From Granulicella sp. (GTDB taxonomy: Bacteria > Acidobacteriota > Terriglobia > Terriglobales > Acidobacteriaceae): a stretch of DNA of 64,000 nucleotides. This document shows, piece by piece, positions 29,880-63,398 of the stretch. The notes beneath the pieces are model-generated. The model was not told the origin of the DNA. It worked only from the letters and a program-made list of their open reading frames with translations, and did no database searches. Both the position numbers and the translations under genes were made by a program. Location of the stretch: assembly GCA_027339965.1 (NCBI GenBank), contig DAHWNL010000073.1, forward strand, positions 1,113-65,112. Direction: 5' to 3'. Within the stretch, counting starts at the first letter, position 1. The number at the start of each line of letters is the position of its first letter.

Positions 29880-29916
29880 CTTGGGTCGATTTTACGTCGA
29901 CCATCTGCAAGGTCGA

Positions 29917-30366: not shown

Positions 30367-30420
30367 GATTTGCTTCTCCTTTTCCCGCGCATTCGTCGTT
30401 CCGGCGCGAACACCGTGTTC

Positions 30421-30971: not shown

Positions 30972-30997
30972 TTCCTCTCCCTCTCCGAAGGTTCAAT

Positions 30998-31935: not shown

Positions 31936-31949
31936 GTTCACCTCCCTGT

Positions 31950-36936: not shown

Positions 36937-37713
36937 TCAGACTGCCTGCGCTTTGGGTTTCCGCTGCTCTTCCAGGCTGTCGTGTGCCCGGCTCAGGCGC
37001 TCCCGCAGATTGGTTATCTGGTTGTCCTTAGCCTGAAGCTGCGCCGTCTTTCGCTGCAGCTTGGTCCCAACTTCTGCAAGTTGTGCCTTCAGACTCTCGA
37101 CCTCGGGGTACTCGGCTTCCTGCTTTTGCGGGTCATTCGGAACGGTCGTAACCGGCGCGGACTTAGGCTCTTCAACGTCGCCCCGGCCTTGCCGAACCTG
37201 GCTGAAATCCAATTCTGACTGGACGGGTTTCTCGGAAAGCTCGGCAATCTGGTTCTCAAGCCGCTGCCTCTGGCTGTCGAGTGCGTTGTAGCGCTCGACC
37301 AGCGCATTGTGTTTGGCGATTACTTCGAGAGCCTTGGCGCGCGAACCGATGTACGCATTGAAGAGCTGTGTGACGATATCGGCGGAGATTGTGAGCCGCC
37401 GTTCGCGATCTCTCAGCAGCCAGCCATTTCCGGTAAGGGAGACGCCGAAACCCATGCCGAGTAGGATCAAGCTCCAGAAATAGATCTGGTGAAGCGTGTT
37501 CTCGAACGTCTCTTTTCGCCAGTCTCCTACCACGGCGCCGTAATTCCTGTTCTGCGGATTGATCCCGGCAAGCGTCGTCTCGACGATGCCCTTGTGGCGT
37601 TGTGCCTGCCACTGGTGCGCCATCGGATCGTACGAACTGCGATCGGCTTGCAACGCATTCGCCGTTGCGGCCAGCGACAATAAAACGACTGCGAGCAGTG
37701 CGTAACGCTTCAT
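36937..37713 (-). CDS. secreted/membrane coiled-coil protein, T4SS-associated
   Basis: Signal peptide 'MKRYALLAVVLLSLAATANA', a central TM helix, and a Q/E/L-rich C-terminal coiled coil. ATGA overlap with the coupling-protein gene. Confidence 0.55.
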   Translation of the reverse strand: MKRYALLAVVLLSLAATANALQADRSSYDPMAHQWQAQRHKGIVETTLAGINPQNRNYGAVVGDWRKETFENTLHQIYFWSLILLGMGFGVSLTGNGWLLRDRERRLTISADIVTQLFNAYIGSRAKALEVIAKHNALVERYNALDSQRQRLENQIAELSEKPVQSELDFSQVRQGRGDVEEPKSAPVTTVPNDPQKQEAEYPEVESLKAQLAEVGTKLQRKTAQLQAKDNQITNLRERLSRAHDSLEEQRKPKAQAV

Positions 37714-39449
37714 TTCTTCCGCCTCCGTTGTCTTTTCTCTTCGAGTTCCGGCGTCGGAAAGCTCAGGTTCAGGCCGTGTGTGTCCGACGCGAGCGTCAGC
37801 AGTTTCGGATACACGTTCATGGGAACGCGCGGCAGCCAGTGGCTCGACGCCCTGCGAATGTGCAGGTGTTTGTGGATGGTCCCAAGGATTGGATCGGTCA
37901 CCAGCATTTCCATCTGGCCCACCGGCATCTTCTTGATGTGCTCATCCTGCGCCAGCGTGTCCTTGATCTCCGTCTGGCTGCCTTCGGTCCCTTCCTCGAA
38001 CTGTGTGTTGAATACGCCCTTCTTTTCGACGTGCATACTGCGCCGCATCTGCCGCACCCGTGCGCTGGCGTTGAGGAAATACTTGGCGGTTTCCTCGTCC
38101 TTGGTGCGCAGCATGAAGGTGGTGTTGGGGGCGCTCGAAACGTCATTACGGAATCCCCGACCGACCTGGAGCAGTTGCGGAGCGCTCTGAAGAGCGAACA
38201 GGAAGGCTACGTTAGCGCCGCGGGCTGTTTGCAGGATGTGCGCAAAGTTCTCGTAGGCGAAGGGGGAAAACTCGTCCATGATGACGCTGACGAACGGTTG
38301 CTGTTCGCCCTCTTCGGCACGCGAGTAGCGCCTGCCAATCATCAGCTGCAGGTTCTGAAGCAGCATCCGGCCGAGCGCGGTGACCGCCCGTTCGTTGACA
38401 TTGACGTTCAGGCTCATGAAGAGAATCAGGCCCTTGTCGATCACGTCGTCGAGCGAGAGCAGGTCGTCATAGGGGCCGGTGATCATGGCCATCTCGTCGC
38501 CCATGAACGTCATCATTTCGTTAATCAGGCCCTGAATCTTCGATACCCGCTCCTTATCTTCGAAGGATTCGAGCAGGTTGTGCACGCTCATGGTGAGCGT
38601 CAGCCTCTGCTGGCCGGTGATCGCCGGGTCTTTGTCGACCCGGTCGAGCGCCGCTTTCATCTGCTTTTTGAGGATGGCCTGGTCGTAGGCGCACACCAGA
38701 ACATCGTGGAAATTGAACCGCTTTCCCGAGTAATGGAGAACGCGGGCGATGTTTTCGAGGTACACCCTCTGGTGACCTTCAAAGAAGTCCTTTTCCATAT
38801 TGAAGGACTCGAAGACGAAGGCAACGTGCTCTTCGGCATTGCTCTGCGGCGCCCAGAACGGGTTGTAGCGCGCCGAAATGTCGGGCCGCATGGGATCAAT
38901 GATGCGAAGATCCTGCATTCGCCCGGCAGCCTCAATCGAGGGAAGCAGTTCGGAAAGCAGCTTCTTGTCGCCTTTGCCGTCGATAAAGATGATGGGCACG
39001 CCACGAGCAATGTCCTGCTCGGTTACGGTTTCGAGGAGATTCGTTTTGCCGGCCCCGGTCATCCCAAAGGCGTTCGACTGCATGGTCCGCGTCTTGTCCG
39101 ACCAGTAGAAGGGCTCTCCGAAGATGTCGTAGCCGAGCAAGACGGACGAACGCCCGCGCGCTTCTTCGAGATAGTTCTCATCCTGCCGGCGGATCACATG
39201 CGGTATCGGCCGCGGCCACGCAGATTCCATTTTGCTGATCCGCGTAGCGCGGTAGCGCAGGACCTCCCACAGGAACACCAGGACCAGGAGCGGATAAATC
39301 GTTATCTCAATGAGCTGCGCCGGGCGAACATGGAGCCGGTCCCAGACAATGAAATATCCAATCCCAAGCACTCCAAGGATTAGCACCCACGCAAGAAGCA
39401 GCGCGTCCTGCTCATCGGTATGCCGGCGATAGTGAACCTCTCGCTGCAT
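37710..39449 (-). CDS. virD4: type IV coupling protein (VirD4/TraD/TraG family)
   Basis: Two N-terminal TM helices, Walker A 'GMTGAGKT' and Walker B 'VSVIMDEF'. Confidence 0.85.
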   Translation of the reverse strand: MQREVHYRRHTDEQDALLLAWVLILGVLGIGYFIVWDRLHVRPAQLIEITIYPLLVLVFLWEVLRYRATRISKMESAWPRPIPHVIRRQDENYLEEARGRSSVLLGYDIFGEPFYWSDKTRTMQSNAFGMTGAGKTNLLETVTEQDIARGVPIIFIDGKGDKKLLSELLPSIEAAGRMQDLRIIDPMRPDISARYNPFWAPQSNAEEHVAFVFESFNMEKDFFEGHQRVYLENIARVLHYSGKRFNFHDVLVCAYDQAILKKQMKAALDRVDKDPAITGQQRLTLTMSVHNLLESFEDKERVSKIQGLINEMMTFMGDEMAMITGPYDDLLSLDDVIDKGLILFMSLNVNVNERAVTALGRMLLQNLQLMIGRRYSRAEEGEQQPFVSVIMDEFSPFAYENFAHILQTARGANVAFLFALQSAPQLLQVGRGFRNDVSSAPNTTFMLRTKDEETAKYFLNASARVRQMRRSMHVEKKGVFNTQFEEGTEGSQTEIKDTLAQDEHIKKMPVGQMEMLVTDPILGTIHKHLHIRRASSHWLPRVPMNVYPKLLTLASDTHGLNLSFPTPELEEKRQRRRKK

Positions 39450-39461: not shown

Positions 39462-39701
39462 CTAAAGCCCCGGGATCCGGAAGCTGAAAAATGCCATGGT
39501 CGCGCCGGCCAGAAGCAGCAACACCGCGCCAACGACGAACAGGGGGTGCAGATTGCGCTTTCCTTTGGCGTCTCTCTGCTCGACCGGGTTCAGGAACGGC
39601 CGTTGCAGCGTCTCGACGAAGCCCTCGTCGCCGGACTGCCGGTAGGCAATCGCCAGCCGCGCCCGCGACTCCTCCGCCGTGATGAATTCGAGTTTCTCCA
39701 T
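39462..39701 (-). CDS. small membrane protein
   Basis: 79 aa with the C-terminal TM helix 'LFVVGAVLLLLAGATMAFF'. 1-nt overlap with the upstream gene. Confidence 0.45.
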   Translation of the reverse strand: MEKLEFITAEESRARLAIAYRQSGDEGFVETLQRPFLNPVEQRDAKGKRNLHPLFVVGAVLLLLAGATMAFFSFRIPGL

Positions 39702-40573
39702 CAGAGCACCACCGTTGCCTTGACTGCGTGACCGTTGTCGGCGCCGAAATCGAACTCATAGATCCCAGGCTTTGCCGCGTCTTCCGGCCGGATTTCGACA
39801 ACCCCCTCCGCCGTCTGCCCGGGGGACAGATCCCTCTGAGGAATGTTGGTGTCCCGTACAGAAACCTGCGCCGTCTGATTCGCGCCGAACTGCGCCACGG
39901 TCTTTCCCGCAACCTGCTCGTCTTTCATGGAGGGCAAAAGATCGGCACTCTGGCGCGGCGCGATCTCGAAGACGTTCGGCGGCTCAATCCGATAAGGGAG
40001 CGCGCTCGAATTGGTCACGGCGAAGCGCACGTAGAAGGAAGTGCCGTCGCATACGACATCTTTGATTGAGACGCTGACACCGTCCTTTGCAGGGTGAACT
40101 CCGCGCGCAGTGACCGGAGTGACCTGAAGCAGAGTCGAACCGATTGCGGATTCGGTGATCTGATCGATCTCTTTGGCGGGCGGATCTGCGGCCTGTGCGG
40201 CACTCGACCTCGTCGCCTGTGGGGTGGGCGAATTGGTCTCGTCAAGAACGAATGTCATCTGCTTGACGTCGCCGGGCGCTTCCAGTTCATACGTCGAGAA
40301 CTGGTGCTCGGTCCATACCATCAGGTCCGTGGATTGCCCACTTTGGAGGGGCTTCACAAAGACGTCATTGCCGTGCCACTCGATCTGCATGGCCTGGCTG
40401 CCTGCCGCGACGCGAGTGATCTTCTCGGGCAGGGCGATGACACTGATGTGATCGAGGGCGGTGTGGATCGGAGTGACCCGGTCGGAGTGGACGGCCTGAT
40501 GAACCACGTTCTGAGCGCCGGCCAGCGTTCCGCCCAGGAGGAAGATCGGAAGTGCAGCTCTATGGAGGAGCAT
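39701..40573 (-). CDS. VirB9/TrbG/TraN-like T4SS outer-membrane core protein (copy 1)
   Basis: Signal peptide after trimming to the ATG at 40573, then a beta-rich N-domain 'ISVIALPEKITRVAAGSQAMQIEW..VFVKPL'. Same two-domain layout as 58264-59229. Confidence 0.55.
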   Translation of the reverse strand: MLLHRAALPIFLLGGTLAGAQNVVHQAVHSDRVTPIHTALDHISVIALPEKITRVAAGSQAMQIEWHGNDVFVKPLQSGQSTDLMVWTEHQFSTYELEAPGDVKQMTFVLDETNSPTPQATRSSAAQAADPPAKEIDQITESAIGSTLLQVTPVTARGVHPAKDGVSVSIKDVVCDGTSFYVRFAVTNSSALPYRIEPPNVFEIAPRQSADLLPSMKDEQVAGKTVAQFGANQTAQVSVRDTNIPQRDLSPGQTAEGVVEIRPEDAAKPGIYEFDFGADNGHAVKATVVL

Positions 40574-40647
40574 GAGAACGTCTCCGTCGCTTCTCCCGGA
40601 AGAAGAGGGCGCCAATGTTTGGCTCCCTCTTCACCCAGGTGTTTTGC

Positions 40648-41004: not shown

Positions 41005-43431
41005 TCAGCGATCCCTTACGATCTGCTTCGTCCCGCCGTCCATGCGGAGCAGGAATTCCCTCGCCTCCCCACGGACCGAATAGAGACAATCGTTCTCGAC
41101 CACAACGCGGACCCGCTGGATCGGACATTGCACCTGAGTTCGAATGCCGCCCGTCCGGACCGCGATCGAGTCGATCACCTCCTGCGGAAAGGCGTGAAAC
41201 AAGATCGAGCCCATGCCTTTGCCGCGCGAGACCACCGTATGGAGCGCCTGGCACCAGCCCACCCGGTCTTCCTGCTTCGCGTCACCCCAACTGCGGATGA
41301 TCGATTGCAGAGAGGCCGCCTGGTCGCGGGCCTGTTCCTGAGCACGGCGGTAGCGAGCCTTTGCTTTCGCAAACGCCCGTTGCTCCGTGGCGATGCTCTG
41401 CCGTTCCCCTGAACGCCTGGCTTCCGCCACGCGCTCGGCCGCCTGCTCATGCGCTTTCTGCTCCACGGTGAGTTTGGCCTGGATCATGCCGTGTCCGGCT
41501 GCGTACACGGAATTGATCAGGCGTGATTCCAGAAACATCGAACTTGTCACTTCGTTCCCGGTGATCAGTCCGCGGAACTGCTCGATCGGGAAGGGCTTCT
41601 CCATAAGTTCCTCGATGTGCTTGCGAAGAATGTTGTAGAGCCTTCCGATACGATCCGTGGGCAGAACGTCGAGCGTGAGGGGCAGTTCCTTGTCATTGAT
41701 CGCCTTGGCTTCCTTGAGCGCAAGCCAGGGCGCCGGAGAAACCTGCTGGCGAATCGCCTGCAGCTTCTTCCGGTCGGCGTTGGTGTTGTGCTTGAGCGAG
41801 TCGATCTCCAGCTGCAGCTCCGAGACCAGCTCATAGAGCAAGTCTTCACGGCCACCGGCGACACAGGAGCTCATCAGGTCGGTGATAACCCCGATCTGAT
41901 TCCCGCGCGACTTGAGGGCCACGAACTCGAGCGAGAACCACGGAGACCTGGCTCTTCCCGCCTTGGTCTTCGTGACTTCATGTTCGTGTTCCATGCGGAA
42001 CCGGCTGTCCACAAAACGTGGAAACCTATCCGCATCGATCACACACACCCAGTCGAAGTCGAAATCCCCGCCGTTGCGTTTGGCGGTCTCCGAATGCAGT
42101 GTGTATGTCCCTTCGAGAGTCAGCTGGTCGGCCACGACCTGGGCGGCAACTTCCTGGTCCATCCCAAATCGCGCCATCAGCTCGACGATCAATTGCTCGC
42201 CCTGCAGGTGTTCGAGTGGAAGCAGGTCCTCTTTCATGCGCACGGGATAACGTACGCACAGGCCCCGTTTCGACGGTAGGGTGGTGATGGCTGCGGTGAG
42301 CGGCATCCAGTCGGCGCCGCTGAGGACCCTGCCACACTGAGCAACCAGAAAGCCGTCATCCGCCAGCGCGAAGGCGGGCAGTTTGACGCCTCCTCCGGTC
42401 ATCAGTTTGTAGGCCCAATGCGCCATCAGTTTGCTGAGTTGGGTGTGGATATAGGGATGACGGGTGATTTCCCCCGATCCATCGGCGAGCAAGGCCGCCT
42501 CGACAACCCGCTGGAACTCTTCCTCCGCGGCTTCATCGTCTTGGCGGATCTCGCGGCCGATGAGTTCGACCACCTTGCGGTGATTGCCCTCTCTCCACGC
42601 GGTTTTGAGCGTTTCGATGATTTCGACGGCCTGCGGAACAATCTCGGTTTCAATTGACTCCGCCGGCGCATGCTGGAGTACCGTGTAGCTCGATTCGAAC
42701 TCAAGGGGACGCGAGACTTCCCGGATCCCCAGCACGATCGGGCTACGATAGACACGCGACCCGAGGCCGATCATGCTGGCCACGGCATTCGGCATCTTGA
42801 TACTCGGCTTGATGGAACTTTCGGGAACGATGACGTCGACCTGAAGGACGTCGGCGACATCGTCGGACATTACCTTGAAGCTTCCTTTTGCCTGGGTATC
42901 GGCGAAGGCGAGGCGGAACTGGTAAAAGTGGCCTTCGGGAAGCGCGAGCTTCTCGAAAGTTCTTTTCCGGATCCATCCCCGGCAGTCGTTCGTTCCCAGT
43001 TCCAGGTCCTTGACCACCATCACGGTCGCTTCAGTCTCCGCGTGCACGACTTTGCAGTCGGACACCAGAATGCCGAAGTACGTGATGGCAGCCTCGGGCC
43101 ATTGCTGGAACCGTTTGGCAATCAGGGGCTCGTGATGGGCGTCGCAGTAGTAGTACTTGCCGTTTTTGGCCGAACCGGACGCGCCGACCATCCTGTACGC
43201 AATCCCGTTGTGCGAGATCGCAGTCATCCGGTCGGCAACCCGCGCCTCTTCCACATCGTCAAGAGGCTCGGTGGGAACGCTGACCAGCGCCACGTGGATG
43301 TTCGGGTACATTGTGCCGAGAAGCGTGTGATCGAGCCAGCACTCCTGACCTGTGCCGGGGATCCGTTCCTCGATGCGTCCGTTGGTGTCGATATCGAGCA
43401 TCACAATTCGATTTCCGTTTCCACTTTGCAT
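41005..43431 (-). CDS. large T4SS-operon protein with RdRP/YonO-like two-barrel RNA polymerase motifs
   Basis: Start set at the ATG at 43431 (AAGGAG 7-8 nt upstream). Contains 'NGGDFDFDWVCVID' (coded at about 42052-42075) plus several upstream blocks resembling the cellular RdRP family (see findings). Confidence 0.55.
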   Translation of the reverse strand: MQSGNGNRIVMLDIDTNGRIEERIPGTGQECWLDHTLLGTMYPNIHVALVSVPTEPLDDVEEARVADRMTAISHNGIAYRMVGASGSAKNGKYYYCDAHHEPLIAKRFQQWPEAAITYFGILVSDCKVVHAETEATVMVVKDLELGTNDCRGWIRKRTFEKLALPEGHFYQFRLAFADTQAKGSFKVMSDDVADVLQVDVIVPESSIKPSIKMPNAVASMIGLGSRVYRSPIVLGIREVSRPLEFESSYTVLQHAPAESIETEIVPQAVEIIETLKTAWREGNHRKVVELIGREIRQDDEAAEEEFQRVVEAALLADGSGEITRHPYIHTQLSKLMAHWAYKLMTGGGVKLPAFALADDGFLVAQCGRVLSGADWMPLTAAITTLPSKRGLCVRYPVRMKEDLLPLEHLQGEQLIVELMARFGMDQEVAAQVVADQLTLEGTYTLHSETAKRNGGDFDFDWVCVIDADRFPRFVDSRFRMEHEHEVTKTKAGRARSPWFSLEFVALKSRGNQIGVITDLMSSCVAGGREDLLYELVSELQLEIDSLKHNTNADRKKLQAIRQQVSPAPWLALKEAKAINDKELPLTLDVLPTDRIGRLYNILRKHIEELMEKPFPIEQFRGLITGNEVTSSMFLESRLINSVYAAGHGMIQAKLTVEQKAHEQAAERVAEARRSGERQSIATEQRAFAKAKARYRRAQEQARDQAASLQSIIRSWGDAKQEDRVGWCQALHTVVSRGKGMGSILFHAFPQEVIDSIAVRTGGIRTQVQCPIQRVRVVVENDCLYSVRGEAREFLLRMDGGTKQIVRDR

Positions 43432-43657
43432 GAGAGTTCTCCTTGTGTTTTGGGCACAGGAAGAATCCATGCCAACCGCATGATGCCGGCTGACCTGGCT
43501 CTTTCCCGACCGTTGTTGAAGGGGAACTAACCAGGCTCGAAATGCCGGGTCAGCGGTACGAATCCTCGCGAGTTGAGCCCGCAAGGTGGCTCAGAGAACC
43601 GAATCCTGAAAGCGTGCTTTCGTGATCGGTTTTTCTGAATTCGCCCGCGCGGCGCTC

Positions 43658-43975
43658 TCAGGCACGCGCGGAAACCGCCTCTTTCTTAATCTCGACCAAT
43701 CCTTCTTTCACAATCGCGCGTGACCTCCACACCTCCACGCGGTAGTACGGCACATCGCGTTTGAGCGCCTCGACCATCGCGCCGCCTTCGTTCGGGAATT
43801 TCTCTTTGAGAACGAGGGGCTGCCCGTCGCTCTCCCCGCCGGCGCCAAGGAAATAGAGGACGAGCGAGCCATCGGGCGCTCGCTCTGTCTCCCCTCTTTT
43901 GCGCCGCCGTTTCTTTTCGCCGGCCGCCGCTGTCGCCGCGGGCATCGGCATCACTCGCGCTGCCTCAGTACTCAT
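43658..43975 (-). CDS. small hypothetical protein
   Basis: 105 aa. ATGA overlap with the VirB8-like gene. Basic 'KKRRRKRGE' segment. Confidence 0.45.
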   Translation of the reverse strand: MSTEAARVMPMPAATAAAGEKKRRRKRGETERAPDGSLVLYFLGAGGESDGQPLVLKEKFPNEGGAMVEALKRDVPYYRVEVWRSRAIVKEGLVEIKKEAVSARA

Positions 43976-44724
43976 GGTTGATGGCTCCCTTCCGCCTGAC
44001 CGGTCTCGGACAATGGATCTCCCGTCAGGACTGCATCTCTCTTTTCGCCTTCGATTTGTTTGGACCAGTACTCTCCGACCAGCAGGCCGCTCGGGTTCTG
44101 CGCGGAGCGGTCCACGTTGACCAGTCGAATGTGGTATTCCTCCACAAGCTGATCGATCGACTCCTCCTGGCTGGTCACCGTGCGAACCGTGCGCACGCCA
44201 AAGGCTGTATAGACCAGCGGTTCTGTCTTGCTCTGCTCGATATGGCTCAGCCTGAGTGTGGAACTTGCCTGCGCCTGCTCAAGTTTGCCGACCGTATCGT
44301 TCTTCTCAAGGTCGGCGAGCGCCTGCCGGCGGAGATTCTCCGTCATCCGATTGAGGGCGTCTGCCCAGTTCTGCGAGAGCGTGTACGAGTCATAGCTCAA
44401 ATAGCGGTTGAGGAAATCCGTGATGAAGGCTTGTCTCTCGTAGTCATCGGCCGCCACCGCGCTTGGCTTGTCGGCGAAGAGCGCCGGAAGAATTCTGTTT
44501 TTTGCCCTCTTTATGGGCGATACCACCGATGCCTGGCCATTCGCGCCGACACGAATCACCGTCGGAGGTTCCATACGAACGAAGAGAAAGCCCGCCACCG
44601 CGACGAGGGCGACCAGCCCCATGATGCCAGCGAGAACCAGACTGCGGTTTGAATAGGCTCGCAGCGCTCCATCCATCTCGTAGAACTTCGGCGTCTCGTT
44701 GTTCAGTTTCGTTCTCGTTTTCAC
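43972..44724 (-). CDS. VirB8/TrbF-like T4SS inner-membrane protein
   Basis: Single N-terminal TM helix ('LVLAGIMGLVALVAVAGFLFV') followed by a ~180-aa periplasmic domain. Position between the VirB6-like and downstream genes. Confidence 0.6.
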   Translation of the reverse strand: MKTRTKLNNETPKFYEMDGALRAYSNRSLVLAGIMGLVALVAVAGFLFVRMEPPTVIRVGANGQASVVSPIKRAKNRILPALFADKPSAVAADDYERQAFITDFLNRYLSYDSYTLSQNWADALNRMTENLRRQALADLEKNDTVGKLEQAQASSTLRLSHIEQSKTEPLVYTAFGVRTVRTVTSQEESIDQLVEEYHIRLVNVDRSAQNPSGLLVGEYWSKQIEGEKRDAVLTGDPLSETGQAEGSHQP

Positions 44725-44739: not shown

Positions 44740-45816
44740 TTACGCGAACCGCGTCATATTTGGGTCGTCGGGCGTGTTGGGTGGCGGCATACTGCCGCCT
44801 CCTCCCTGGCTCACGCTCAGTGCTCCGTAGGCGCCGCCCGTCGAAAATGTCGAGGGCATTGCTCCGCCCATGAGCCCCATTCCCGCTCCGACGATGCCGC
44901 CGGCGACAGCGCCCGCCGGTCCGGCCGCAGCGCCCAGCTCGGCGCCGTGGGAGATCCCGTGAGTGATCCTTGAGACCGTCATCGACAGGCCGAGACCTAC
45001 TGCAGAAAACTGTCCACGCAGGATGAATGCTGCCACCATCGGGATCAGCAGGATACAGATCGCATACATGATGCTGATGAGGCCGATGGTCTCGATCCCG
45101 CCGTCGAGCGGTCCCGTCGCGCCGAGGGTTGGGCCCAGCCCGAAGCTGCCCAGGTCGCCGTTGAGGATGGCGTTGACATCGTTCGCATGGATGGCTGTGA
45201 TCAGGCAGCCAAAAACCGCGTAGATGATGGACCAGGCATTCCAGATCCCGAGGTTCAGGGCGTAGTACTTGGTCAGCGAGTTAATCAGCGAACTTGGAGC
45301 GAGGGCAATCACAAACGGCCCCATCGCAAAGAGGCAAGTGCCCCAAAACGTGTAGATCAAGGCGAAGATCTGGACGGCGATTGGGTAGATTAGATATGCA
45401 AATACGATCTCCACGAGAGTGAGTAAAGCCGAAGGCGTCCACGGAATTGCGTTGAATACAGCCTGATAACCCTTGTCTGCGAAAAGCGTTGACAACTGTA
45501 ATTGCCAATTCTTTGCAAGATCGACGGCGCCGTATGCACTGTCGATAGAACTGGCAAGCTGGTTGAATCCGCTGTACGCATCGGAAAAGAATGCGGTCCA
45601 ATTTCCGATCAGGAAGGCGGCGACTGCGTACTTCAGGAGCGTGCCGGTGAGCGAACGCAGGTCCCCGCCCTTCGTATAGGCCTCATAGATGCCGAGGACA
45701 AGACAGATCGTCATCAACACGTAAGAGACGCTCTGTTCGGTCCCGAGAATGCTTCCCGAGATGCCATTAACGGCTGAAGTCAGCATGGTCTGAAATTCAA
45801 AAATCCCTGTCGGCAT
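44740..45816 (-). CDS. VirB6/TrbL-like polytopic T4SS membrane protein
   Basis: At least 6 TM helices and a Gly-rich C-terminal tail 'GAAAGPAGAVAGGIVGAGMGLMGG'. Confidence 0.7.
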   Translation of the reverse strand: MPTGIFEFQTMLTSAVNGISGSILGTEQSVSYVLMTICLVLGIYEAYTKGGDLRSLTGTLLKYAVAAFLIGNWTAFFSDAYSGFNQLASSIDSAYGAVDLAKNWQLQLSTLFADKGYQAVFNAIPWTPSALLTLVEIVFAYLIYPIAVQIFALIYTFWGTCLFAMGPFVIALAPSSLINSLTKYYALNLGIWNAWSIIYAVFGCLITAIHANDVNAILNGDLGSFGLGPTLGATGPLDGGIETIGLISIMYAICILLIPMVAAFILRGQFSAVGLGLSMTVSRITHGISHGAELGAAAGPAGAVAGGIVGAGMGLMGGAMPSTFSTGGAYGALSVSQGGGGSMPPPNTPDDPNMTRFA

Positions 45817-45832
45817 CGGTTCTCCTCTCCCA

Positions 45833-46630
45833 TCAGTGCTGACCGAGAATCTGCAGCATTCTTTGATTCAGGTTCTGCATCTGCGTGGTCGAATCCTTGA
45901 GCGCCCCGCCGCGATTCGAAAGGCTCGCACTGTTCACGCGCAGCAGTTCCGCCATACCCATCTGGGTGTAGGCGTTTGCCTGTACGACCCATGCGCTAGC
46001 CTCGGCGTCGAGCATCGGCGCCGTTCCAGGAGCCGAGGCGGCAATCTGCTGATTCAGCTTTTGGGCGACCTCCATTTCCCGCGCCGCAAATGCGTCGAGC
46101 TCAATCGCCTTCTTGAGCGCATCCTGTGCCTGCGCGTCGCCCATATCGATCTGATACGCGATGTTCTGTGGGACAGCCGTCTGGGCAGGCAGAGGTTCGA
46201 ATACGTTCTGGTAGGCGCTCCCGATGCTCCCAATGTCATTGGGGTCGGCCGACAGCATCTGCCGTTCGAGTTGTTGCGGATAGGGAAGCTGGGCGCTCGC
46301 GATATTCACGGATGCGAGCTGTCGGAAACTCAGGAAAGAGCTTGAAAAGTTGGTCGCCATCTGCCGCGCACTGTCGATCGCCGCAATCGGATAGAGCACT
46401 TGTTGCTGGAACTGCTGTTCCTCCTGTTCGACCTTGTCGATCAGCTTGAGCGGCGATGCCACGGCACTCGTGAGCGTGTTGTTGACCGCTTTCAGCCCGG
46501 CAAGAATGGCGGCGATGTCGATGCCGAACTGCGAGTGTGCCGGCTCGACTGCAACCACGGAGAGAATGACGAGCCCGACCGCCCCAAGGGCGATCCTCTG
46601 AGCCAGCGGGTGACGAAAAACACCTCTCAC
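45833..46630 (-). CDS. TrbJ/VirB5-like secreted protein (paralogue 1)
   Basis: Signal peptide, helical Q/A-rich body, C-terminus '...TTQMQNLNQRMLQILGQH'. Confidence 0.45.
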   Translation of the reverse strand: MRGVFRHPLAQRIALGAVGLVILSVVAVEPAHSQFGIDIAAILAGLKAVNNTLTSAVASPLKLIDKVEQEEQQFQQQVLYPIAAIDSARQMATNFSSSFLSFRQLASVNIASAQLPYPQQLERQMLSADPNDIGSIGSAYQNVFEPLPAQTAVPQNIAYQIDMGDAQAQDALKKAIELDAFAAREMEVAQKLNQQIAASAPGTAPMLDAEASAWVVQANAYTQMGMAELLRVNSASLSNRGGALKDSTTQMQNLNQRMLQILGQH

Positions 46631-47397
46631 TGTCCACCTCCTATTCGGTTCAACAGTTGCTGATTGAGGTTTTGCATGTTGGTTGTCGATTGCTTCAGAA
46701 CCGCATCCCGGTGAGCAAGCTCGATGGCTGCCTCGCGCAGCTGATAGGCGAGCAGCTTCTGTTGCATGGCGATGCTGGCAAGCTCGGCCGTTCGCGCTTC
46801 GGCCGCAACCATATCCGCGGTGCCAGGAGCCGTCGTCTCGGCCTGGTCTTCGATCTTCTGGGCCGCTTGAAGCATCGCCTGTGTCGCCTGGTCGGCGGCC
46901 ATCGATTGTTCGGTTGCATCCCTGGCGGTTGCGTCTTCCATGTCCATCATTTGGAGATTGAGCTGTGGCGCTGCCCCGATTGCAGGCTGCGCTCCGTACT
47001 CCGTCGCGTAGCTCTGACTGATGTCAGGAATCTGGCCGCTCTGCGCACTGAGAATTTCCGACTCAAAACTCCTCGATGTCGGCAGAATGGCGCTGTTGAC
47101 CCGGATGGCGAAGACGCTGTTCATCCACCCCCGGTAACTGGCCTTGATCGTAGCGATGTAGTTGCGCGTTTCCTCGGTCAGGGCCACCGGCCAGAGAGCC
47201 TGTTGCTCTGTTTGAAGGACCTCGCCGCGAACCCGGTTTATGTCACTCAAAGCGCCACCAATGGGCCCGGTGATTGTTCCCAAAATCGCAGAGAAGAGTC
47301 CTCCGAACTGCGCATAGGCGCCAGTCGGGACGAGAAGGGCCAGCAGCAGGATGGCGCTGCGGGTGAAGGCTATCCGCTCGGAACGGGCTTTTCTCAT
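46627..47397 (-). CDS. TrbJ/VirB5-like secreted protein (paralogue 2)
   Basis: Signal peptide and C-terminus '...STTNMQNLNQQLLNRIGGGQ', parallel to the neighbouring gene. 4-nt overlaps on both sides. Confidence 0.45.
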   Translation of the reverse strand: MRKARSERIAFTRSAILLLALLVPTGAYAQFGGLFSAILGTITGPIGGALSDINRVRGEVLQTEQQALWPVALTEETRNYIATIKASYRGWMNSVFAIRVNSAILPTSRSFESEILSAQSGQIPDISQSYATEYGAQPAIGAAPQLNLQMMDMEDATARDATEQSMAADQATQAMLQAAQKIEDQAETTAPGTADMVAAEARTAELASIAMQQKLLAYQLREAAIELAHRDAVLKQSTTNMQNLNQQLLNRIGGGQ

Positions 47398-50138
47398 ACC
47401 AGTTCCTCCTCAAACGAGACTTCGGCTTCCGACGCGTCCGAGTTGCGCTGATGGGGCTCCGGCTTCGGGGACCTTTTCCCAACTTCTGTACCCAACCGGC
47501 TTACTTCCCCTGAACGCTCCTCGGGCAATTCGGGCACCTCCGAAAGACCGTTCGGAAACGTTCTCGCCAGTTCCTCGAAGGCTTTGAGCCAACTCATTTC
47601 GCTGTGTGTCGACAGCCACCACTGCCGGTACCAGCGTTCCCGCGGATAGGTCGTCAGCAGCCAGTACTCGATCGGCGTGGGCACAATGTAGAGACTGTGC
47701 GTGGTCTCTGCCTTCTCTCCAATGACGATCAGGAACTCGCTTTTCCTGCCCTTTTCTGTCATCCCCAGCGTCTTCACCCGGTTGAGCGTGGTCTCGTTCA
47801 GGTGAACGAAGTGACGTAGTACGTCGAAGTTGCCCTTTTGCCGGCCGATCAGCTTGATCGCGGTCGTGGCGAGGATGGCGCCGCCGAACTCGTTGGGTTT
47901 GTCCGGCGTGCCGGTGAAGTCTTCGACCGCCTGCGAGATGCCCCACACACAGGCATTGCGTTTCCTGGCCGTGCGGAACAACTGCACGACAACCGGGGCT
48001 AGACTCGGCGACTGGAGCAGCGCCCAGCACTCATCGAGCACGGTAATGCACCGCTTGTTCGTCTTGCCCTGGGCACGTCGCGTCGTCGTGTAGGCAATCA
48101 GCAGGCTCATCGCCACCTCGAGCTTCGGATCGTCCTTCAACTGCTCAACGTTGAAGTAGAGCCACGGCGTCGTCATGTCGATGGTTGTGTGTGTATCGAA
48201 GAGGCGCGCATACATCCCGTTGTTCACCCAGGCGCGCAGCTTCGCCGCGGCGATCCGCGCCATTTCGTTTACGTGGGGATTCTTGTCGTCGTCGTAATAG
48301 TTCTGGAGTTCGTCGTAGAGGTCGCTGTAAAGGGGGATCGGGTTATCCATTCGCATCTGCGCCCGCGCGTAGGTCTTGCGGATGGCGTTCATGATCAGGT
48401 TGTCGAGCAGGTCCGTGTCCCCTTCGCCGCTGTCGCCGATCATGTATCGCGTCAGGTTTTTGAGGAAGGACAGGTGATCGTTCGAAGGTTCCGTCTGTCC
48501 CGGTTCGAGATCGAAGGGATTGATCGTCTGACGGCTGTCGAGAGACATGGTGATCATCTCGCCGCCCATGAAACCGACCGCATGGTAGTAGCTGTCGCCC
48601 CGCTCGATGATCGACACCTGCACGTCCTGCCGCGCGCAGATCAGAAGCATCTTTCCGACGAGCACGCTCTTGCCCGTTCCCGAGGTTGCGGCGATGATTG
48701 CGTTGGCGTTTTCGAGTGCCGGATCGAAGGGTGAGAAGGGCAGCAGCTGCCTGTAGGGCGTCTCGAACAGCATCAGCGGCGAGCGATTTGTCCCGGACCA
48801 GGGAAGCTCCAAAGGCAGAAGGTCGGCGCCGTGCGGGGTGAGCAGGTCGAGGTCGCGCCGGTCGTCCTCGGCGAGCCCCGGCAATGTCGAAAGATAGATG
48901 CGGCGGGTTGCAAGCGTCTCCGTGAGCCCGCGCGCGCCGTTCATATGCGCGACGACATGGAGCACCTGCTGACGCCGGTTCGCCAACTCCCGTTCCGCTT
49001 TCTCGTATTGCTCGGCGGACCACGCGGGGGCCGAAGTGCGGATTCCAATGATCATGCCCACACGTGCGGTCTTGACCGAATTCGCGATCAACTCCTGCTG
49101 GATCTGAATCAATTCGTGCGTCGCCACCTGGGCCGTAACGTCGACGCGAAGATTGCCCTTCGAATCTTTCTGCGCCGCCTGCATCTTGCGCAGCTTCTTC
49201 TTGTATTTGTCGAGAACGGCCCTTTGGTCGGGAATCGATACGTTCGTCGAGATGACGACGGGAAAACCGATCGTCATCAGCTGCCGCAGTATGCCTGGAT
49301 ACGTCCCATCGGGAGGCGCGTTCAGGCTGATGAAGCTCCAGAGCAGGCCGTCGATATTGATGTAGCTCTCGGTCTGCCCCAGAATGCTGACCGTTGTGGC
49401 GCGCTCGCGAGGGGAGATGTAGCGGGTCTCAGCCGGATGCGCATGGAGCGGCTTCCGGTCGGGGTCCATCGGACGCATTGCCCGCTTCACTTCGAGAAAG
49501 AGGTCGCCATCCGAGATGCGTTCAGGCCCGAGGCCGCCGGCCTTCATCGCGGACTCGATGCCGGCGATGAGCGACTCGAACTCGGCGACGGTGTCCTGGT
49601 GCTCCTTCCGCGACTTCTCGACAGCCTTGGTAACGGACAGAGTGAAGCCCCCATGCGCCCGCCGGCGATCCTCTTTGCTCATCGGCGCTCCGCCTGCGAG
49701 CAACGTACGCTTGTGCTTTGCCGGATCCCAGATCAGGTAGACTGCCGCAATCCGCGTGAGGTAGGTGCCCTGCTTTTCCTTCTCCGACCAGACTGCAAGA
49801 CGCTGCTCGTCGAGCGCCTGAACCTCCGCGTTCTCACAACGCGATTCGGTGCGGTACTGATCGAGCAGGCCGTTGAGGCTCTCGACGACCTCGTAACGAA
49901 ACTGGAGCCGCATGCTCTGTTCCGGCATGGCGCGGAGCAGGGATTCAAGAACGCTCTTTGCTTCATTCCGTTCATCGTCATCGCCGAAATAGGTCATGGC
50001 GCCGGCAACGCGGAATCCGGCGACATAGCACCCGTCCGTGCGAACCATCACGTTATCGAGAAAATCGCGGATCTTCAGCAGTTCGCATACCGCCGGGTCT
50101 TCAAGAGAGCGTTCATGCTGTGCGCGGGTTTTGGGCAT
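47394..50138 (-). CDS. virB4: VirB4/TrbE-family conjugal transfer ATPase
   Basis: 914 aa with Walker A 'ATSGTGKS' and Walker B 'ITVLDECW'. Confidence 0.9.
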   Translation of the reverse strand: MPKTRAQHERSLEDPAVCELLKIRDFLDNVMVRTDGCYVAGFRVAGAMTYFGDDDERNEAKSVLESLLRAMPEQSMRLQFRYEVVESLNGLLDQYRTESRCENAEVQALDEQRLAVWSEKEKQGTYLTRIAAVYLIWDPAKHKRTLLAGGAPMSKEDRRRAHGGFTLSVTKAVEKSRKEHQDTVAEFESLIAGIESAMKAGGLGPERISDGDLFLEVKRAMRPMDPDRKPLHAHPAETRYISPRERATTVSILGQTESYINIDGLLWSFISLNAPPDGTYPGILRQLMTIGFPVVISTNVSIPDQRAVLDKYKKKLRKMQAAQKDSKGNLRVDVTAQVATHELIQIQQELIANSVKTARVGMIIGIRTSAPAWSAEQYEKAERELANRRQQVLHVVAHMNGARGLTETLATRRIYLSTLPGLAEDDRRDLDLLTPHGADLLPLELPWSGTNRSPLMLFETPYRQLLPFSPFDPALENANAIIAATSGTGKSVLVGKMLLICARQDVQVSIIERGDSYYHAVGFMGGEMITMSLDSRQTINPFDLEPGQTEPSNDHLSFLKNLTRYMIGDSGEGDTDLLDNLIMNAIRKTYARAQMRMDNPIPLYSDLYDELQNYYDDDKNPHVNEMARIAAAKLRAWVNNGMYARLFDTHTTIDMTTPWLYFNVEQLKDDPKLEVAMSLLIAYTTTRRAQGKTNKRCITVLDECWALLQSPSLAPVVVQLFRTARKRNACVWGISQAVEDFTGTPDKPNEFGGAILATTAIKLIGRQKGNFDVLRHFVHLNETTLNRVKTLGMTEKGRKSEFLIVIGEKAETTHSLYIVPTPIEYWLLTTYPRERWYRQWWLSTHSEMSWLKAFEELARTFPNGLSEVPELPEERSGEVSRLGTEVGKRSPKPEPHQRNSDASEAEVSFEEELV

Positions 50139-63384: not shown

Positions 63385-63398
63385 GTTGTTGGTGGATT

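What the first reader, a model, noticed from the sequence alone, without database searches (positions are those of the whole stretch)
41005..43431. RdRP/YonO-like two-barrel RNA polymerase homologue embedded in the T4SS operon
This ~808-aa protein sits on the T4SS strand between the VirB8-like/small ORF pair and the VirB9-like gene. By eye it contains blocks in the same order as cellular RNA-dependent RNA polymerases (QDE-1/plant RDR family). These are 'YRMVGASGSAKNGKYYY' (cf. FS-x-SQLR-x4-WFF), 'ITYFGILVSD' (cf. ARLGQ-FS), 'NDCRGWI' (cf. DG-G-IS), 'FYQFRLAF-x5-KGSFKV' (cf. AFQIR-x4-KG), 'CVRYPVRMKEDLLPL' (cf. KNP-x-HPGD-x-R-x-L) and 'TLHSETAKRNGGDFDFDWVCVID' (cf. SGSDLDGD-x-YFV-x-WD of RdRPs and LH-x6-NADFDGD of bacterial beta-prime). 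These comparisons are from memory and are not a computed alignment. The usual Gly of DxDGD is Phe here. This superfamily is established in eukaryotic RNAi and in a few phage single-subunit RNAPs (the YonO type). I do not know of a described member wired into a conjugation apparatus. Primases exported through the T4SS are known from conjugative plasmids (RP4 TraC, ColIb Sog). An RNA polymerase or primase acting on transferred ssDNA is therefore a plausible role. The missing relaxase and VirB11 make the locus more unusual still.
Basis: partly seen in the sequence, partly recalled or inferred. Interest (0 to 1): 0.88.

Follow-up and report, generated by a model that had tools for sequence, protein, structure and literature searches.

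The report
RdRP-like polymerase inside a conjugation operon
A gene in the middle of the DNA-transfer (type IV secretion) operon of a soil-acidobacterial integrative conjugative element encodes a single-chain "two-barrel" RNA polymerase related to eukaryotic RNAi polymerases and phage YonO-type enzymes; this pairing is conserved in hundreds of genomes and I found no description of it in the literature I could search.

Summary
It lies between a VirB8 gene plus a small ORF and a VirB9/CagX-like gene, with VirB4 and VirD4 in the same operon.

The fold interpretation holds. An AlphaFold2 model (pLDDT 85) matches only two-barrel RNA polymerases in the PDB: plant RDR2 (E 1e-12), Thermus-phage gp64/gp62/gp96 and crAss gp66. 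All eight residues reported as universal to two-barrel RNAPs are invariant. More distant relatives, linked by hhalign at E 3.5e-81, hit Pfam RdRP, one above its cut-off. The protein itself hits no Pfam, NCBIfam or PDB sequence model.

The gene sits at the same operon position in every related locus with enough flank (about 70 of the 80 Terriglobia loci kept, of 460 found), down to 46% identity. Sister clades occur in other mobile elements without an adjacent T4SS.

New here: a 175-nt covarying leader RNA that sequesters the polymerase's Shine-Dalgarno sequence. The "missing" relaxase is probably a MobC-type gene at 35602-36462.

The function is inferred: most likely element-encoded RNA synthesis coupled to transfer. 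I rate this a new variant of a known superfamily.

The parts
41005..43431 (-). Gene for the 808-aa single-chain two-barrel (RdRP/YonO-like) polymerase
   Evidence: ORF and motifs. AF2 model pLDDT 85.4. Foldseek hits only two-barrel RNAPs. At least 1525 homologues. Same operon position in related loci.
42694..43050 (-). First beta-barrel region (res ~128-246). Carries the invariant D149 (NDCRGWI), R173 and K182 (QFRLAF..AKGSFK), i.e. the beta/Rpb2-like half of the active site.
   Evidence: Strand layout from DSSP of the model. Invariance. Alignment to the RDR2 DG.GKIS and QIR..KG motifs through the sister clade. Boundaries are approximate because the model coordinates could not be inspected.
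42034..42384 (-). Second beta-barrel region (res ~350-466). Carries the invariant R394-Y-P396 and the metal-binding loop.
   Evidence: R-x-P and DxDxD are among the eight universal residues listed in PMC2919709.
42052..42066 (-). DFDFD (D456, D458, D460): predicted Mg2+-binding triad. Phe replaces the usual Gly of DxDGD.
   Evidence: for coordinates. The three Asp are invariant and F459 is at least 90% conserved. The sister clade has DFDGD at the aligned position.
41278..41544 (-). Long antiparallel helical hairpin (res 630-718) in the C-terminal region, followed by a small beta domain (res 775-797, nt 41041-41109)
   Evidence: DSSP of the AF2 model. Function unknown. The whole-chain Foldseek alignments to RDR2 span about 890 columns.
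43429..43604 (-). Conserved structured leader RNA immediately upstream of the polymerase ATG. It has a 5' hairpin, a long irregular hairpin and a 3' helix that pairs an anti-SD with the AAGGAG Shine-Dalgarno and the start region.
   Evidence: Conserved blocks and visible compensatory changes. Similar MFE architectures in divergent loci. Covariance models R1/R2 place their significant hits (E<=0.01) once per locus, always upstream of the polymerase gene. Pair counts: 90.2% paired versus 75.2% shuffled, 43/55 pairs with double changes, 0/500 shuffles reach this. No Rfam match.
43658..43975 (-). Small (105 aa) cytoplasmic protein with a disordered Arg/Lys-rich N-terminus and a beta-beta-alpha-beta-beta domain. 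It is a positionally conserved companion between VirB8 and the leader/polymerase.
   Evidence: No fold match.
43972..44724 (-). VirB8-like T4SS gene
   Evidence: PF04335, E 1.5e-5. One TM segment. Syntenic.
39701..40615 (-). VirB9/CagX-like T4SS gene
   Evidence: PF03524, E 5.7e-7, and TIGR02781. Signal-like N-terminus.
37710..39449 (-). VirD4/TraD-type coupling protein
   Evidence: PF02534, PF12696 and TIGR03743.
47394..50138 (-). VirB4/TraC-type ATPase
   Evidence: PF19044, E 1.3e-23; TIGR02746, E 5.8e-51.
44740..47397 (-). Three further membrane or secreted operon ORFs: 358 aa multi-TM, and 265 aa and 256 aa with signal-like N-termini. No family hits.
   Evidence: Conserved in order in the related loci with flank.
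50138..52141 (-). Promoter-proximal small membrane ORFs of the operon: 118 aa (weak TIGR03750 conjugal-transfer hit), 152 aa and 228 aa
35602..36462 (-). Candidate MobC/Replic_Relax-type relaxase (PD-(D/E)XK-like D..EYE..K motif), two genes downstream of VirD4
   Evidence: NF041423, E 1.3e-5. PF13814 in 2 of 10 orthologues, best E 1.9e-5. Invariant D177/E195/E197/K201. The annotated 5' extension to 36669 is not conserved.
28060..33014 (-). ssDNA/replication-recombination module of the same element: Rad52 (28060-28968), RNase H (29052-29879), SSB (29917-30366) and AEP primase (31950-33014)
   Evidence: The AEP gene is also found in many related loci.
61984..63474 (.). Tyrosine integrase (61984-63384, +) next to tRNA-Ala (63399-63474, -): the right end of the integrative element
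   Evidence: No tRNA-derived direct repeat of 13 nt or more elsewhere in the window, so the left end (about 12-14 kb) is not defined.

Best explanation
The gene encodes a catalytically competent single-chain two-barrel nucleotide polymerase. It belongs to the clade that contains eukaryotic RNAi RdRPs (QDE-1/RDR2) and phage/plasmid single-subunit RNAPs (YonO, P23-45 gp64/gp96, crAss gp66). It is a fixed core gene of the mating-pair-formation/T4SS operon of a large family of integrative conjugative elements in Terriglobia (Acidobacteriota).

What is shown: the fold; the complete catalytic residue set; the conserved operon position; cytoplasmic localisation (no TM segment or signal peptide); and a dedicated leader RNA predicted, on covariation, to occlude its ribosome-binding site. 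The leader implies that polymerase translation is gated separately from the tightly packed T4SS genes around it.

What is inferred: the enzyme makes RNA on the element's own DNA, independently of host RNA polymerase, at the time of transfer. I favour synthesis on the single-stranded transferred strand, giving the first transcripts and/or primers for complementary-strand synthesis. The element's SSB and RNase H would handle the ssDNA and the RNA:DNA hybrids. The enzyme might be exported through the T4SS with the DNA.

My confidence by step: two-barrel polymerase homologue about 0.95; enzymatically active RNA polymerase about 0.75; function coupled to conjugative transfer about 0.6; acts on the ssDNA intermediate about 0.35-0.4.
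For: Fold. The AF2 model has pLDDT 85.4 and pTM 0.80. All PDB hits with E<=1e-3 are two-barrel RNAPs: RDR2 at 9.6e-13 to 2e-8, P32 gp64 and P74 gp62 at 7e-8 to 4e-6, crAss gp66 at 2e-5 and P23-45 gp96 at 3e-5. The next hits (E about 0.1) include isolated DPBB domains. BFVD hits to phage RdRP-annotated proteins reach 3e-13.

Catalytic set. D149, R173, K182, R394, P396, D456, D458 and D460 are invariant. They match the eight universal two-barrel residues of PMC2919709.

Sequence bridge. hhalign of A1 against sister clade A2 gives probability 100% and E 3.5e-81. A2 members hit Pfam RdRP PF05183; the best is E 1e-7 at 31.5 bits, above the GA of 23.8.

Operon membership. Gene order is identical in the 80 Terriglobia loci wherever the flank is present. 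The polymerase retains 46-50% identity in the most distant loci, where VirB4 and VirD4 retain about 52-54% and the structural ORFs 30-45%.

Localisation and regulation. The protein is cytoplasmic. The covarying SD-sequestering leader is found at E<=0.01 only upstream of this gene.

Precedents. YonO is a processive DNA-dependent RNAP for its element's own genes. QDE-1 initiates de novo on ssDNA and is stimulated by RPA. P23-45 gp96 is delivered with the DNA and transcribes pre-early genes.

Element context. The ICE carries SSB, RNase H, Rad52 and a MobC-type relaxase candidate, consistent with ssDNA transfer.
Against: No biochemical or genetic data exist, so the template (ssDNA, dsDNA or RNA) and product are unknown.

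The element already has a conserved AEP primase, so a pure primase role would be redundant.

No secretion signal can be recognised: the C-terminal 20 residues have a net charge of only about +1.

Sister clades sit in mobile elements with no T4SS within 10 kb, next to DUF932, PD-(D/E)XK, Rad52, PolA, SNF2 or methylase-helicase genes. The ancestral role is therefore not T4SS-specific.

No repeated promoter-like or hairpin motif that the enzyme might recognise was found.

Phe replaces the usual Gly in the metal loop, with unknown effect.

TM-scores to RDR2 are moderate (0.46-0.49) with large RMSD. I could not inspect the model coordinates to measure barrel geometry.
Confidence: 0.4

Rival explanations
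1. Donor-side element transcriptase (strict YonO analogy). The enzyme recognises element-specific promoters on double-stranded ICE DNA and transcribes transfer or late genes after induction. It acts as a positive-feedback or host-independent expression device and has no role in the recipient or on ssDNA.
For: YonO, the only functionally characterised bacterial-prophage member read here, does exactly this. P23-45 gp64 also transcribes phage genes from specific motifs. The gene lies inside a long, tightly packed ~16.5-kb operon that a processive RNAP could serve. A translationally gated leader fits a switch-like regulator. Sister clades without an adjacent T4SS suggest a general 'element transcription' role.
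Against: No repeated candidate promoter motif was found in the element. Being encoded mid-operon means host RNAP must already be transcribing the operon. This model does not explain why this clade alone moved into the T4SS operon.
Confidence: 0.25
2. RNA-templated polymerase. Like eukaryotic RdRPs, it copies an RNA (an ICE transcript, its own structured leader or an invader RNA) into dsRNA or antisense RNA. The purpose would be regulation, anti-defence or defence.
For: The best structural matches are bona fide RdRPs (RDR2), and relatives hit Pfam RdRP. A conserved structured RNA lies directly next to the gene. QDE-1 has both DdRP and RdRP activities.
Against: The phage members of this clade characterised in the papers read here (YonO, P23-45 gp64 and gp96) are DNA-dependent. 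No Argonaute/Dicer-like or other dsRNA-processing partner was seen among the ORFs scanned. SD sequestration by itself explains the leader as a translational control element.
Confidence: 0.1
3. DNA-synthesising two-barrel enzyme (PolD-like logic) or primase-polymerase that replicates the excised or transferred element.
For: The two-barrel superfamily includes a DNA polymerase, archaeal PolD (abstracts listed). One sister-clade locus pairs the gene with a family-A DNA polymerase and recombination genes but shows no obvious primase within 10 kb.
Against: No PolD DP2 structure appears among the significant Foldseek hits, which are all RNAPs. The element has its own AEP primase.
Confidence: 0.07
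4. Exapted, non-catalytic scaffold or adaptor of the T4SS/relaxosome that merely retains a polymerase fold.
For: The position inside a structural-gene operon and the Gly-to-Phe change in the metal loop.
Against: All eight catalytic-core residues are invariant across clades at 21-25% identity. That is hard to explain without catalysis. The protein has no membrane or secretion features.
Confidence: 0.05

Closest known systems
Eukaryotic cellular RdRPs (Arabidopsis/maize RDR2, Neurospora QDE-1; Pfam PF05183)
   Same: Best structural matches over nearly the whole chain (about 890 aligned columns, E to 1e-12). Same order of motifs and the same eight catalytic-core residues. Single chain carrying both barrels. 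QDE-1 also uses ssDNA templates de novo.
   Different: About 10-12% identity. The protein itself does not reach any Pfam RdRP threshold. DFDFD replaces D(L/Y)DGD. It is bacterial, encoded on an ICE inside a T4SS operon, and has no RNAi partners.
YonO of Bacillus prophage SPbeta and 'YonO-like' bacterial proteins (Iyer et al. 2003; Ruprich-Robert & Thuriaux 2010; Forrest et al. 2017)
   Same: A bacterial mobile-element-encoded single-chain two-barrel enzyme of about 800-900 aa, from the same RdRP-like branch. This is the likely model for DNA-dependent, host-independent transcription.
   Different: No detectable pairwise similarity: tblastn against 50,697 phage records found nothing. The host element is conjugative, not a phage. 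The gene is embedded among T4SS genes and has its own leader RNA.
Phage-delivered two-barrel RNAPs: P23-45 gp96 (tape-measure-fused virion RNAP) and crAss-like phi14:2 gp66; also P23-45/P74/P32 gp64/gp62 non-virion RNAPs
   Same: Significant Foldseek hits (8h2n, 6vr4, 8f72, 8f5m). They set a precedent for a two-barrel RNAP that enters the recipient cell with the incoming DNA and transcribes the first genes.
   Different: Their delivery route is a phage tail, not a T4SS. They are far larger or fused proteins. Translocation of the ICE enzyme is purely hypothetical.
Conjugative primases exported or used during transfer (IncI Sog, RP4 TraC; CTnDOT TraP, encoded inside a tra operon). From my own knowledge, not checked here.
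   Same: A nucleic-acid-synthesising enzyme encoded with the transfer genes. This is a plausible functional analogue for acting on the incoming single strand.
   Different: An unrelated fold (TOPRIM/DnaG or AEP versus two DPBB barrels). The ICE here already carries an AEP primase.
'Transposon relatives' and NCgl1702-like RNAPs of bacterial selfish elements (Iyer & Aravind 2012, as cited in PMC7824862)
   Same: This work establishes that RdRP-like two-barrel enzymes occur in non-phage bacterial mobile elements.
   Different: I could not obtain that paper or the NCgl1702 sequence, so identity with this family is untested. PMC2919709 describes NCgl1702 as a fast-evolving orphan in which only a small part resembles RNAP motifs. 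By contrast, the family here is large and well conserved.

Membership tests
Two-barrel (double-psi beta-barrel) nucleotide polymerase superfamily | Overall fold with two beta-barrels in the catalytic core | tested here: met
   The AF2 model (pLDDT 85.4) matches only two-barrel RNAPs at E<=1e-3 in the PDB. The next tier of hits (E about 0.1) includes isolated DPBB domains. BFVD agrees.
Two-barrel (double-psi beta-barrel) nucleotide polymerase superfamily | DxDxD metal-binding triad in the beta'/Rpb1-like barrel | tested here: met
   D456, D458 and D460 are invariant in A1 (33 sequences) and A12 (21 sequences, three clades). They align with DFDGD of the sister clade and GGDLDGD of RDR2.
Two-barrel (double-psi beta-barrel) nucleotide polymerase superfamily | The other five universal residues: Asp plus Arg/Lys pair in the beta/Rpb2-like barrel, and R-x-P in the beta'-like barrel (PMC2919709) | tested here: met
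   D149, R173, K182, R394 and P396 are invariant. D149, R173 and K182 are mapped via hhalign and HMMER alignments. R394-x-P396 is mapped only to the sister clade's RYP and assigned to the universal R-x-P by pattern.
Two-barrel (double-psi beta-barrel) nucleotide polymerase superfamily | Mg2+-dependent template-directed nucleotidyl transfer | not testable with these tools
   Needs purified protein.
Pfam RdRP (PF05183) / eukaryotic cellular RdRP family | Significant match of the protein to the family HMM | tested here: not met
   The query has no hit even at E<=10, and only 1 of 33 orthologues hits, at E 0.11. Sister-clade proteins do hit: P0261 at E 1e-7, 31.5 bits, above GA 23.8, and P0258 at 2.5e-5. 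I therefore place it in the same clade or superfamily, not in PF05183 itself.
Pfam RdRP (PF05183) / eukaryotic cellular RdRP family | Canonical DxDGD loop | tested here: not met
   The loop is DFDFD, with F459 at least 90% conserved. The sister clade keeps DFDGD.
Pfam RdRP (PF05183) / eukaryotic cellular RdRP family | RNA-templated RNA synthesis | not testable with these tools
   Biochemistry is required.
YonO-like phage single-subunit RNAPs | Detectable sequence similarity to YonO or phage homologues | tested here: not met
   tblastn against 50,697 phage records gave no match at E<=1e-3. PHROGs gave nothing significant. Only fold-level matches to phage proteins were found.
YonO-like phage single-subunit RNAPs | DNA-dependent transcription of the element's own genes | not testable with these tools
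   No expression or biochemical data. No candidate promoter motif was found.
Conjugative primases (DnaG/TOPRIM type Sog/TraC; AEP type) | TOPRIM or AEP catalytic domain | tested here: not met
   No Pfam or NCBIfam primase domain, and the fold hits are exclusively two-barrel RNAPs. The AEP primase of the element is a different gene (31950-33014). The polymerase could work like a primase but is not a member of these families.
T4SS structural components (VirB1-11 homologues) | Sequence or fold match to a VirB family; membrane or periplasmic targeting | tested here: not met
   No family hit, no TM segment or signal peptide, and no T4SS structure among the Foldseek hits.
Known RNA families (Rfam 15), for the leader element | Match to a curated covariance model | tested here: not met
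   No hit at gathering thresholds over the whole window, and none at E<=1 over 43380-43700.

The most novel reading that the evidence does not exclude
The polymerase is a T4SS substrate. It would be translated in a burst when the leader RNA opens, recruited by the VirD4 coupling protein, and exported with (or just ahead of) the relaxase-bound single strand. In the recipient it would transcribe and/or prime the naked ssDNA without help from host RNA polymerase or primase. This would be the conjugative counterpart of injected phage RNAPs (N4 vRNAP, crAss gp66, P23-45 gp96). It would give these ICEs host-independent establishment across distantly related soil bacteria.
Probability: 0.2. Interest if true: 0.92.

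Novelty: new variant of a known kind. Interest (0 to 1): 0.72.

Why it matters
Two-barrel single-subunit RNAPs outside cellular transcription are known from eukaryotic RNAi, a few phages and poorly characterised 'YonO-like' bacterial genes. Their role in non-phage mobile elements has never been tested experimentally, as far as I could find.

This family gives such a role a defined setting. The clade is large (at least 1525 proteins; 460 loci among species-representative genomes), well conserved and high-confidence in its predicted fold. Its position inside a conjugation operon is fixed and points to a function in DNA transfer.

If the enzyme acts on the transferred strand, it would be a new solution to a long-standing question: how incoming ssDNA is first expressed and converted to dsDNA in a foreign host. 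If it instead transcribes the element in the donor, it would be the first conjugative-element RNAP.

Either way, it offers a compact (808 aa) bacterial relative of RNAi polymerases for biochemistry and for thinking about their origin. It also comes with a new cis-regulatory RNA. Finally, it fills an annotation gap, because no Pfam, NCBIfam or PHROG model recognises the family.

Tried and rejected
Direct sequence searches found nothing significant. I searched the protein and its profiles (A1, A12) against Pfam, NCBIfam, PHROGs and PDB sequences. The only polymerase-like PDB sequence hits were RDR2 and QDE-1, at E 0.2-4. The sequence link therefore rests on intermediates.

tblastn against phage genomes found no match. 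The sister clade occurs in only 2 IMG/VR contigs. A prophage origin of the locus is rejected: it has T4SS genes, an integrase next to a tRNA, and no capsid, tail or other phage family among the ORFs scanned.

I rejected the idea that the protein is a relaxase or replaces one, because a MobC-type candidate exists and the fold is not HUH or PD-(D/E)XK.

I rejected a T4SS structural protein.

The companion ORF orf105 gave no answer. The AF2 model was only moderate (pLDDT 67.7) and Foldseek gave no hit below E=1.

I looked for repeated promoter or hairpin motifs that an element RNAP might use. I found only a 4-copy ~60-100-nt repeat in the cargo region. On the minus strand it reads as the start of paralogous small ORFs rather than a promoter. 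No sigma-70-like promoter lies in the leader region.

Iyer & Aravind 2012, Iyer et al. 2003 and Drobysheva et al. 2021 are not held. I therefore could not check whether this exact family is among their catalogued two-barrel families. The held supplements of Chaban et al. 2024 contain no acidobacterial names and no GGDFDFD string.

No tRNA-derived att repeat was found to fix the left end of the element.

Full report
1. The observation

The interval 41005-43431 is an ORF on the minus strand: 808 codons plus a stop. The ATG at 43431 lies 7 nt downstream of an AAGGAG Shine-Dalgarno, and homologues begin at the same Met. DFDFD is residues 456-460 (nt 42052-42066).

The neighbourhood is a T4SS operon on the same strand. 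In transcription order it reads:
- three small membrane ORFs (51455-52141, 50495-50953, 50138-50494)
- VirB4/TraC (47394-50138)
- three membrane or secreted ORFs (44740-47397)
- VirB8 (43972-44724)
- a 105-aa ORF (43658-43975)
- the polymerase
- a doubtful 111-aa ORF
- VirB9/CagX-like (39701-40615)
- VirD4/TraD (37710-39449)
- a secreted coiled-coil protein
- a MobC-like protein

2. What the protein is

Direct sequence methods fail. Pfam, NCBIfam, PHROGs and PDB sequences give nothing, either with the single sequence or with a 33-member profile.

Structure gives a clear answer. An AlphaFold2 model built on 33 homologues has mean pLDDT 85.4 and pTM 0.80. Foldseek against the PDB returns 11 hits at E<=1e-3, and all are two-barrel RNA polymerases:
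- maize and Arabidopsis RDR2 (9.6e-13 to 2e-8; TM 0.41-0.49 normalised on the query; about 690-900 aligned columns)
- the non-virion RNAPs of Thermus phages P32 and P74 (7e-8 to 4e-6)
- crAss-like phi14:2 gp66 (2e-5)
- P23-45 gp96 (3e-5)

After a gap of more than three orders of magnitude, the E~0.1-1 tier includes isolated double-psi beta-barrel domains and multisubunit RNAP large subunits. Against predicted viral structures, the best hits are phage proteins annotated as RNA-dependent RNA polymerase (E to 3e-13) and a P23-45 protein.

Ruprich-Robert & Thuriaux (PMC2919709) list eight residues invariant in all two-barrel RNAPs. In QDE-1 these are D709, R738, K743, R962, P964 and D1007/D1009/D1011. 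The counterparts here are D149, R173, K182, R394, P396 and D456/D458/D460. All are invariant in 33 orthologues of 49-87% identity. They are also invariant in a 21-sequence alignment spanning three clades at 21-25% identity.

A sequence bridge also exists.
- An exhaustive profile search found 791 representative clusters. These include full-length distant relatives with a canonical DFDGD.
- Their alignment (A2) matches the family profile with hhalign probability 100%, E 3.5e-81, over 645 columns.
- Several of them hit Pfam RdRP PF05183. The best is E 1e-7 at 31.5 bits, above the gathering score of 23.8. Different members cover the first-barrel and second-barrel halves of the model.
- The only PDB sequence hits of A2 are maize RDR2. 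The hits are weak (E 0.2), but they align TGDgaGkIS with FSDGIGKIS, QvRL..KG with FQIR..KG, and GDFDGD with GDLDGD.

I place the protein in the RdRP/YonO-like branch of single-subunit two-barrel RNAPs. I do not place it in Pfam RdRP itself, which it does not match. I also cannot call it YonO-like by sequence, because tblastn against phages found nothing.

3. Distribution and context

The family is large. The word-indexed search found at least 1525 proteins, all unnamed or 'hypothetical' and mostly from soil metagenomes and Terriglobia MAGs. Among one-genome-per-species contigs there are 460 loci. The 80 best are all labelled Acidobacteriota apart from one short MAG contig labelled Acetobacteraceae. 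Many lie on chromosomal contigs of up to 7 Mb, and one contig carries two divergent copies.

I ran tblastn of the window's operon proteins against these loci. Every locus with enough flank has the same gene order on the same strand...VirB4 - three ORFs - VirB8 - (small ORF) - polymerase - VirB9-like - VirD4 - coiled-coil ORF - MobC-like ORF ... AEP primase. In the most distant loci the polymerase keeps 46-50% identity, comparable to VirB4 and VirD4 (52-54%) and above the structural ORFs (30-45%). It is thus a core gene of this ICE family under strong constraint.

The window's element ends at a tyrosine integrase next to tRNA-Ala (61984-63474). It carries:
- Rad52, RNase H, SSB and an AEP primase (28060-33014)
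- an SNF2 helicase and methyltransferases
- a PRTRC (ThiF/E2) cassette
- Fic and a MadB-type ATPase
. Host RND-efflux-sized genes lie to the left. I found no att repeat.

Sister clades are also on mobile elements, but not in T4SS operons. In Calditrichia-type integrative elements the gene sits next to an integrase, DUF932, a PD-(D/E)XK nuclease, Rad52, a family-A DNA polymerase and an SNF2 helicase. On cyanobacterial (Pseudanabaena) plasmids it sits next to an N6-methylase, a 1400-aa DEAD helicase and a Rho_N-domain protein. Embedding in the T4SS operon is therefore a derived feature of the Terriglobia clade, as is the DFDFD loop.

4. A dedicated regulatory RNA

Most operon genes overlap or are 15-32 nt apart (the other spacers over 200 nt lie before VirD4 and after the first gene), but a 226-nt spacer precedes the polymerase. 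It is conserved across 75 loci. Compensatory changes are visible even in a plain MAFFT alignment, for example CCUUGCG/CGCAAGG, CCCUACA/UGUAGGG and CUUCGUGG/CCACGAAG.

MFE folds of divergent members share three elements: a 5' hairpin, a long irregular hairpin, and a 3' helix pairing an anti-SD (UUCUUCC or CUCCUUA) with the AAGGAG SD.

Two rounds of covariance modelling placed every significant hit (E<=0.01), one per locus, directly upstream of the polymerase gene. Nothing reached E 0.1 elsewhere in 1.6 Mb, and the sister-clade loci have none.

On the 34-sequence model alignment:
- 90.2% of cells pair, versus 75.2% in shuffles
- 43 of 55 pairs show double changes, versus 26
- the covariation score is 0.361, versus 0.152 (0/500 shuffles reach it)
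- slid controls reach at most 0.098

The caveat is that this alignment was fitted to the model. Frequent G-U pairs indicate that the sense (mRNA) strand forms the structure. Rfam has no match.

I interpret it as a translational gate (SD sequestration) specific to the polymerase. The trigger is unknown. Autoregulation by the polymerase or by the small basic protein upstream is a reasonable guess.

5. Function

Shown: this is a cytoplasmic protein with the complete two-barrel catalytic core. It is co-transcribed with a T4SS, and its translation is separately gated.

Inferred: it is an RNA polymerase that works on the element's DNA around the time of transfer.

The phage relatives characterised in the papers I read are DNA-dependent enzymes that free a mobile element from host RNAP. 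YonO transcribes SPbeta late genes. P23-45 gp64 transcribes early and middle genes. P23-45 gp96 enters with the DNA and transcribes pre-early genes. QDE-1, a eukaryotic member, starts de novo on ssDNA and is stimulated by the ssDNA-binding protein RPA.

A conjugative element exposes ssDNA in donor and recipient, and this ICE encodes SSB, RNase H and a relaxase candidate. I therefore favour RNA synthesis on the transferred strand, giving first transcripts and/or primers (about 0.35-0.4).

The strict YonO-like donor transcriptase is the main rival (0.25). RNA-templated synthesis, DNA synthesis and a non-catalytic scaffold role are less likely. A simple primase role is weakened by the conserved AEP primase. 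Export through the T4SS is a speculation with phage precedents only.

- The gene is on the minus strand.
- The relaxase is probably not missing. The ORF at 35602-36462 hits the MobC replication-relaxation family at E 1.3e-5. Its annotated N-terminal extension to 36669 is not conserved. 2 of its 10 orthologues hit Pfam Replic_Relax with best E 1.9e-5. It keeps an invariant D..E-Y-E..K motif. These scores are below the curated cut-offs, so it remains a candidate.
- No VirB11 was seen among the ORFs scanned. The VirB4 is closest to TraC (F-type) and the VirD4 to the SXT/TOL TraD models. From general knowledge, such systems commonly lack VirB11.

7. Novelty

RdRP-like two-barrel enzymes in bacteria and their selfish elements have been noted since 2003, and again in 2010 and 2012. 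[quoted passage not shown] The kind is therefore known.

The following were not described in any paper I could search: a large acidobacterial clade with a DFDFD loop, its fixed position inside a T4SS operon, and its leader RNA.

I rate this a new variant of a known kind, with interest 0.72.

Noticed in passing
window 43429-43604 (-): A roughly 175-nt conserved, covarying structured leader RNA lies directly upstream of the polymerase ATG. Its 3' helix sequesters the Shine-Dalgarno. Significant hits (E<=0.01) occur once per locus and only at this position. It has no Rfam match.
   Followed up: yes
window 43658-43975 (-); L034 9415-9714, L061 9463-9744, L047 9420-9749: A small (93-109 aa) protein with an Arg/Lys-rich disordered N-terminus and a beta-beta-alpha-beta-beta domain is positionally conserved between VirB8 and the leader/polymerase, even in the most distant loci. 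Its fold matches nothing. It could be a partner or regulator of the polymerase.
   Followed up: partly
window 35602-36462 (-): A candidate MobC/Replic_Relax (PD-(D/E)XK-type) relaxase lies two genes downstream of VirD4. The mechanical ORF start at 36669 over-extends it by about 70-95 residues, and orthologues have stops there.
   Followed up: partly
window 52740-52841, 54318-54419, 55727-55828, 56821-56922: Four copies (66-80% identical) of a 60-100-nt element lie between cargo genes, with the core TTGTTTTTCGACAAAAGCCTGGTACGCAGCTTTTCTTCTTTCGAAAAACCTCATCATCGG. On the minus strand it reads ATGATGAGG... = MMRFFERRKAAYQAFVEKQ, so it may mark the 5' ends of paralogous small ORFs rather than a regulatory repeat.
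   Followed up: partly
L081 (Calditrichia contig), L083, L085; L086/L087 (Pseudanabaena plasmids NZ_AP017561.1, NZ_AP017562.1): Sister clades of the polymerase, with the canonical DFDGD loop, recur next to DUF932, a PD-(D/E)XK nuclease, Rad52, DNA Pol A and an SNF2 helicase. On cyanobacterial plasmids they sit next to an N6-methylase, a giant DEAD helicase and a Rho_N-domain protein. The window's ICE also has SNF2 (22375-24663), a DUF6094 methylase (26415-27488) and Rad52. This is a possible recurrent polymerase-helicase-methylase association.
   Followed up: partly
window 13908-17841 (-): A PRTRC-type cassette lies at the left side of the element: PRTRC_E-like (13908-14543), ThiF/E1-like (16207-17100) and prokaryotic E2 family D (17107-17841).
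   Followed up: no
window 54426-55592 (-) and 56938-60693 (-): Cargo near the integrase end includes a Fic/DOC protein with an HTH and a MadB-family AAA ATPase (59734-60693, E 1e-65). The ATPase is preceded in transcription order by two large unannotated ORFs (408 and 434 aa). This may be a defence module.
   Followed up: no
window 39450-39700: A second unusually long (251-nt) spacer lies inside the operon, between the VirB9-like and VirD4 genes. I did not examine it for conservation, structure or oriT-like repeats.
   Followed up: no
L018 and L024 (both on contig CAVPBA010000002.1, 4.8 Mb): One Terriglobales genome carries two divergent copies of the whole element. Their polymerases are 62% and 80% identical to the query. 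Related ICEs therefore coexist in one chromosome.
   Followed up: no
window 40648-40983 (-): The 111-aa ORF between the polymerase and the VirB9-like gene is detectable only in the closer relatives. In the ~50%-identity loci the corresponding gap is only about 200 nt. It may be fast-evolving or not a real gene.
   Followed up: partly
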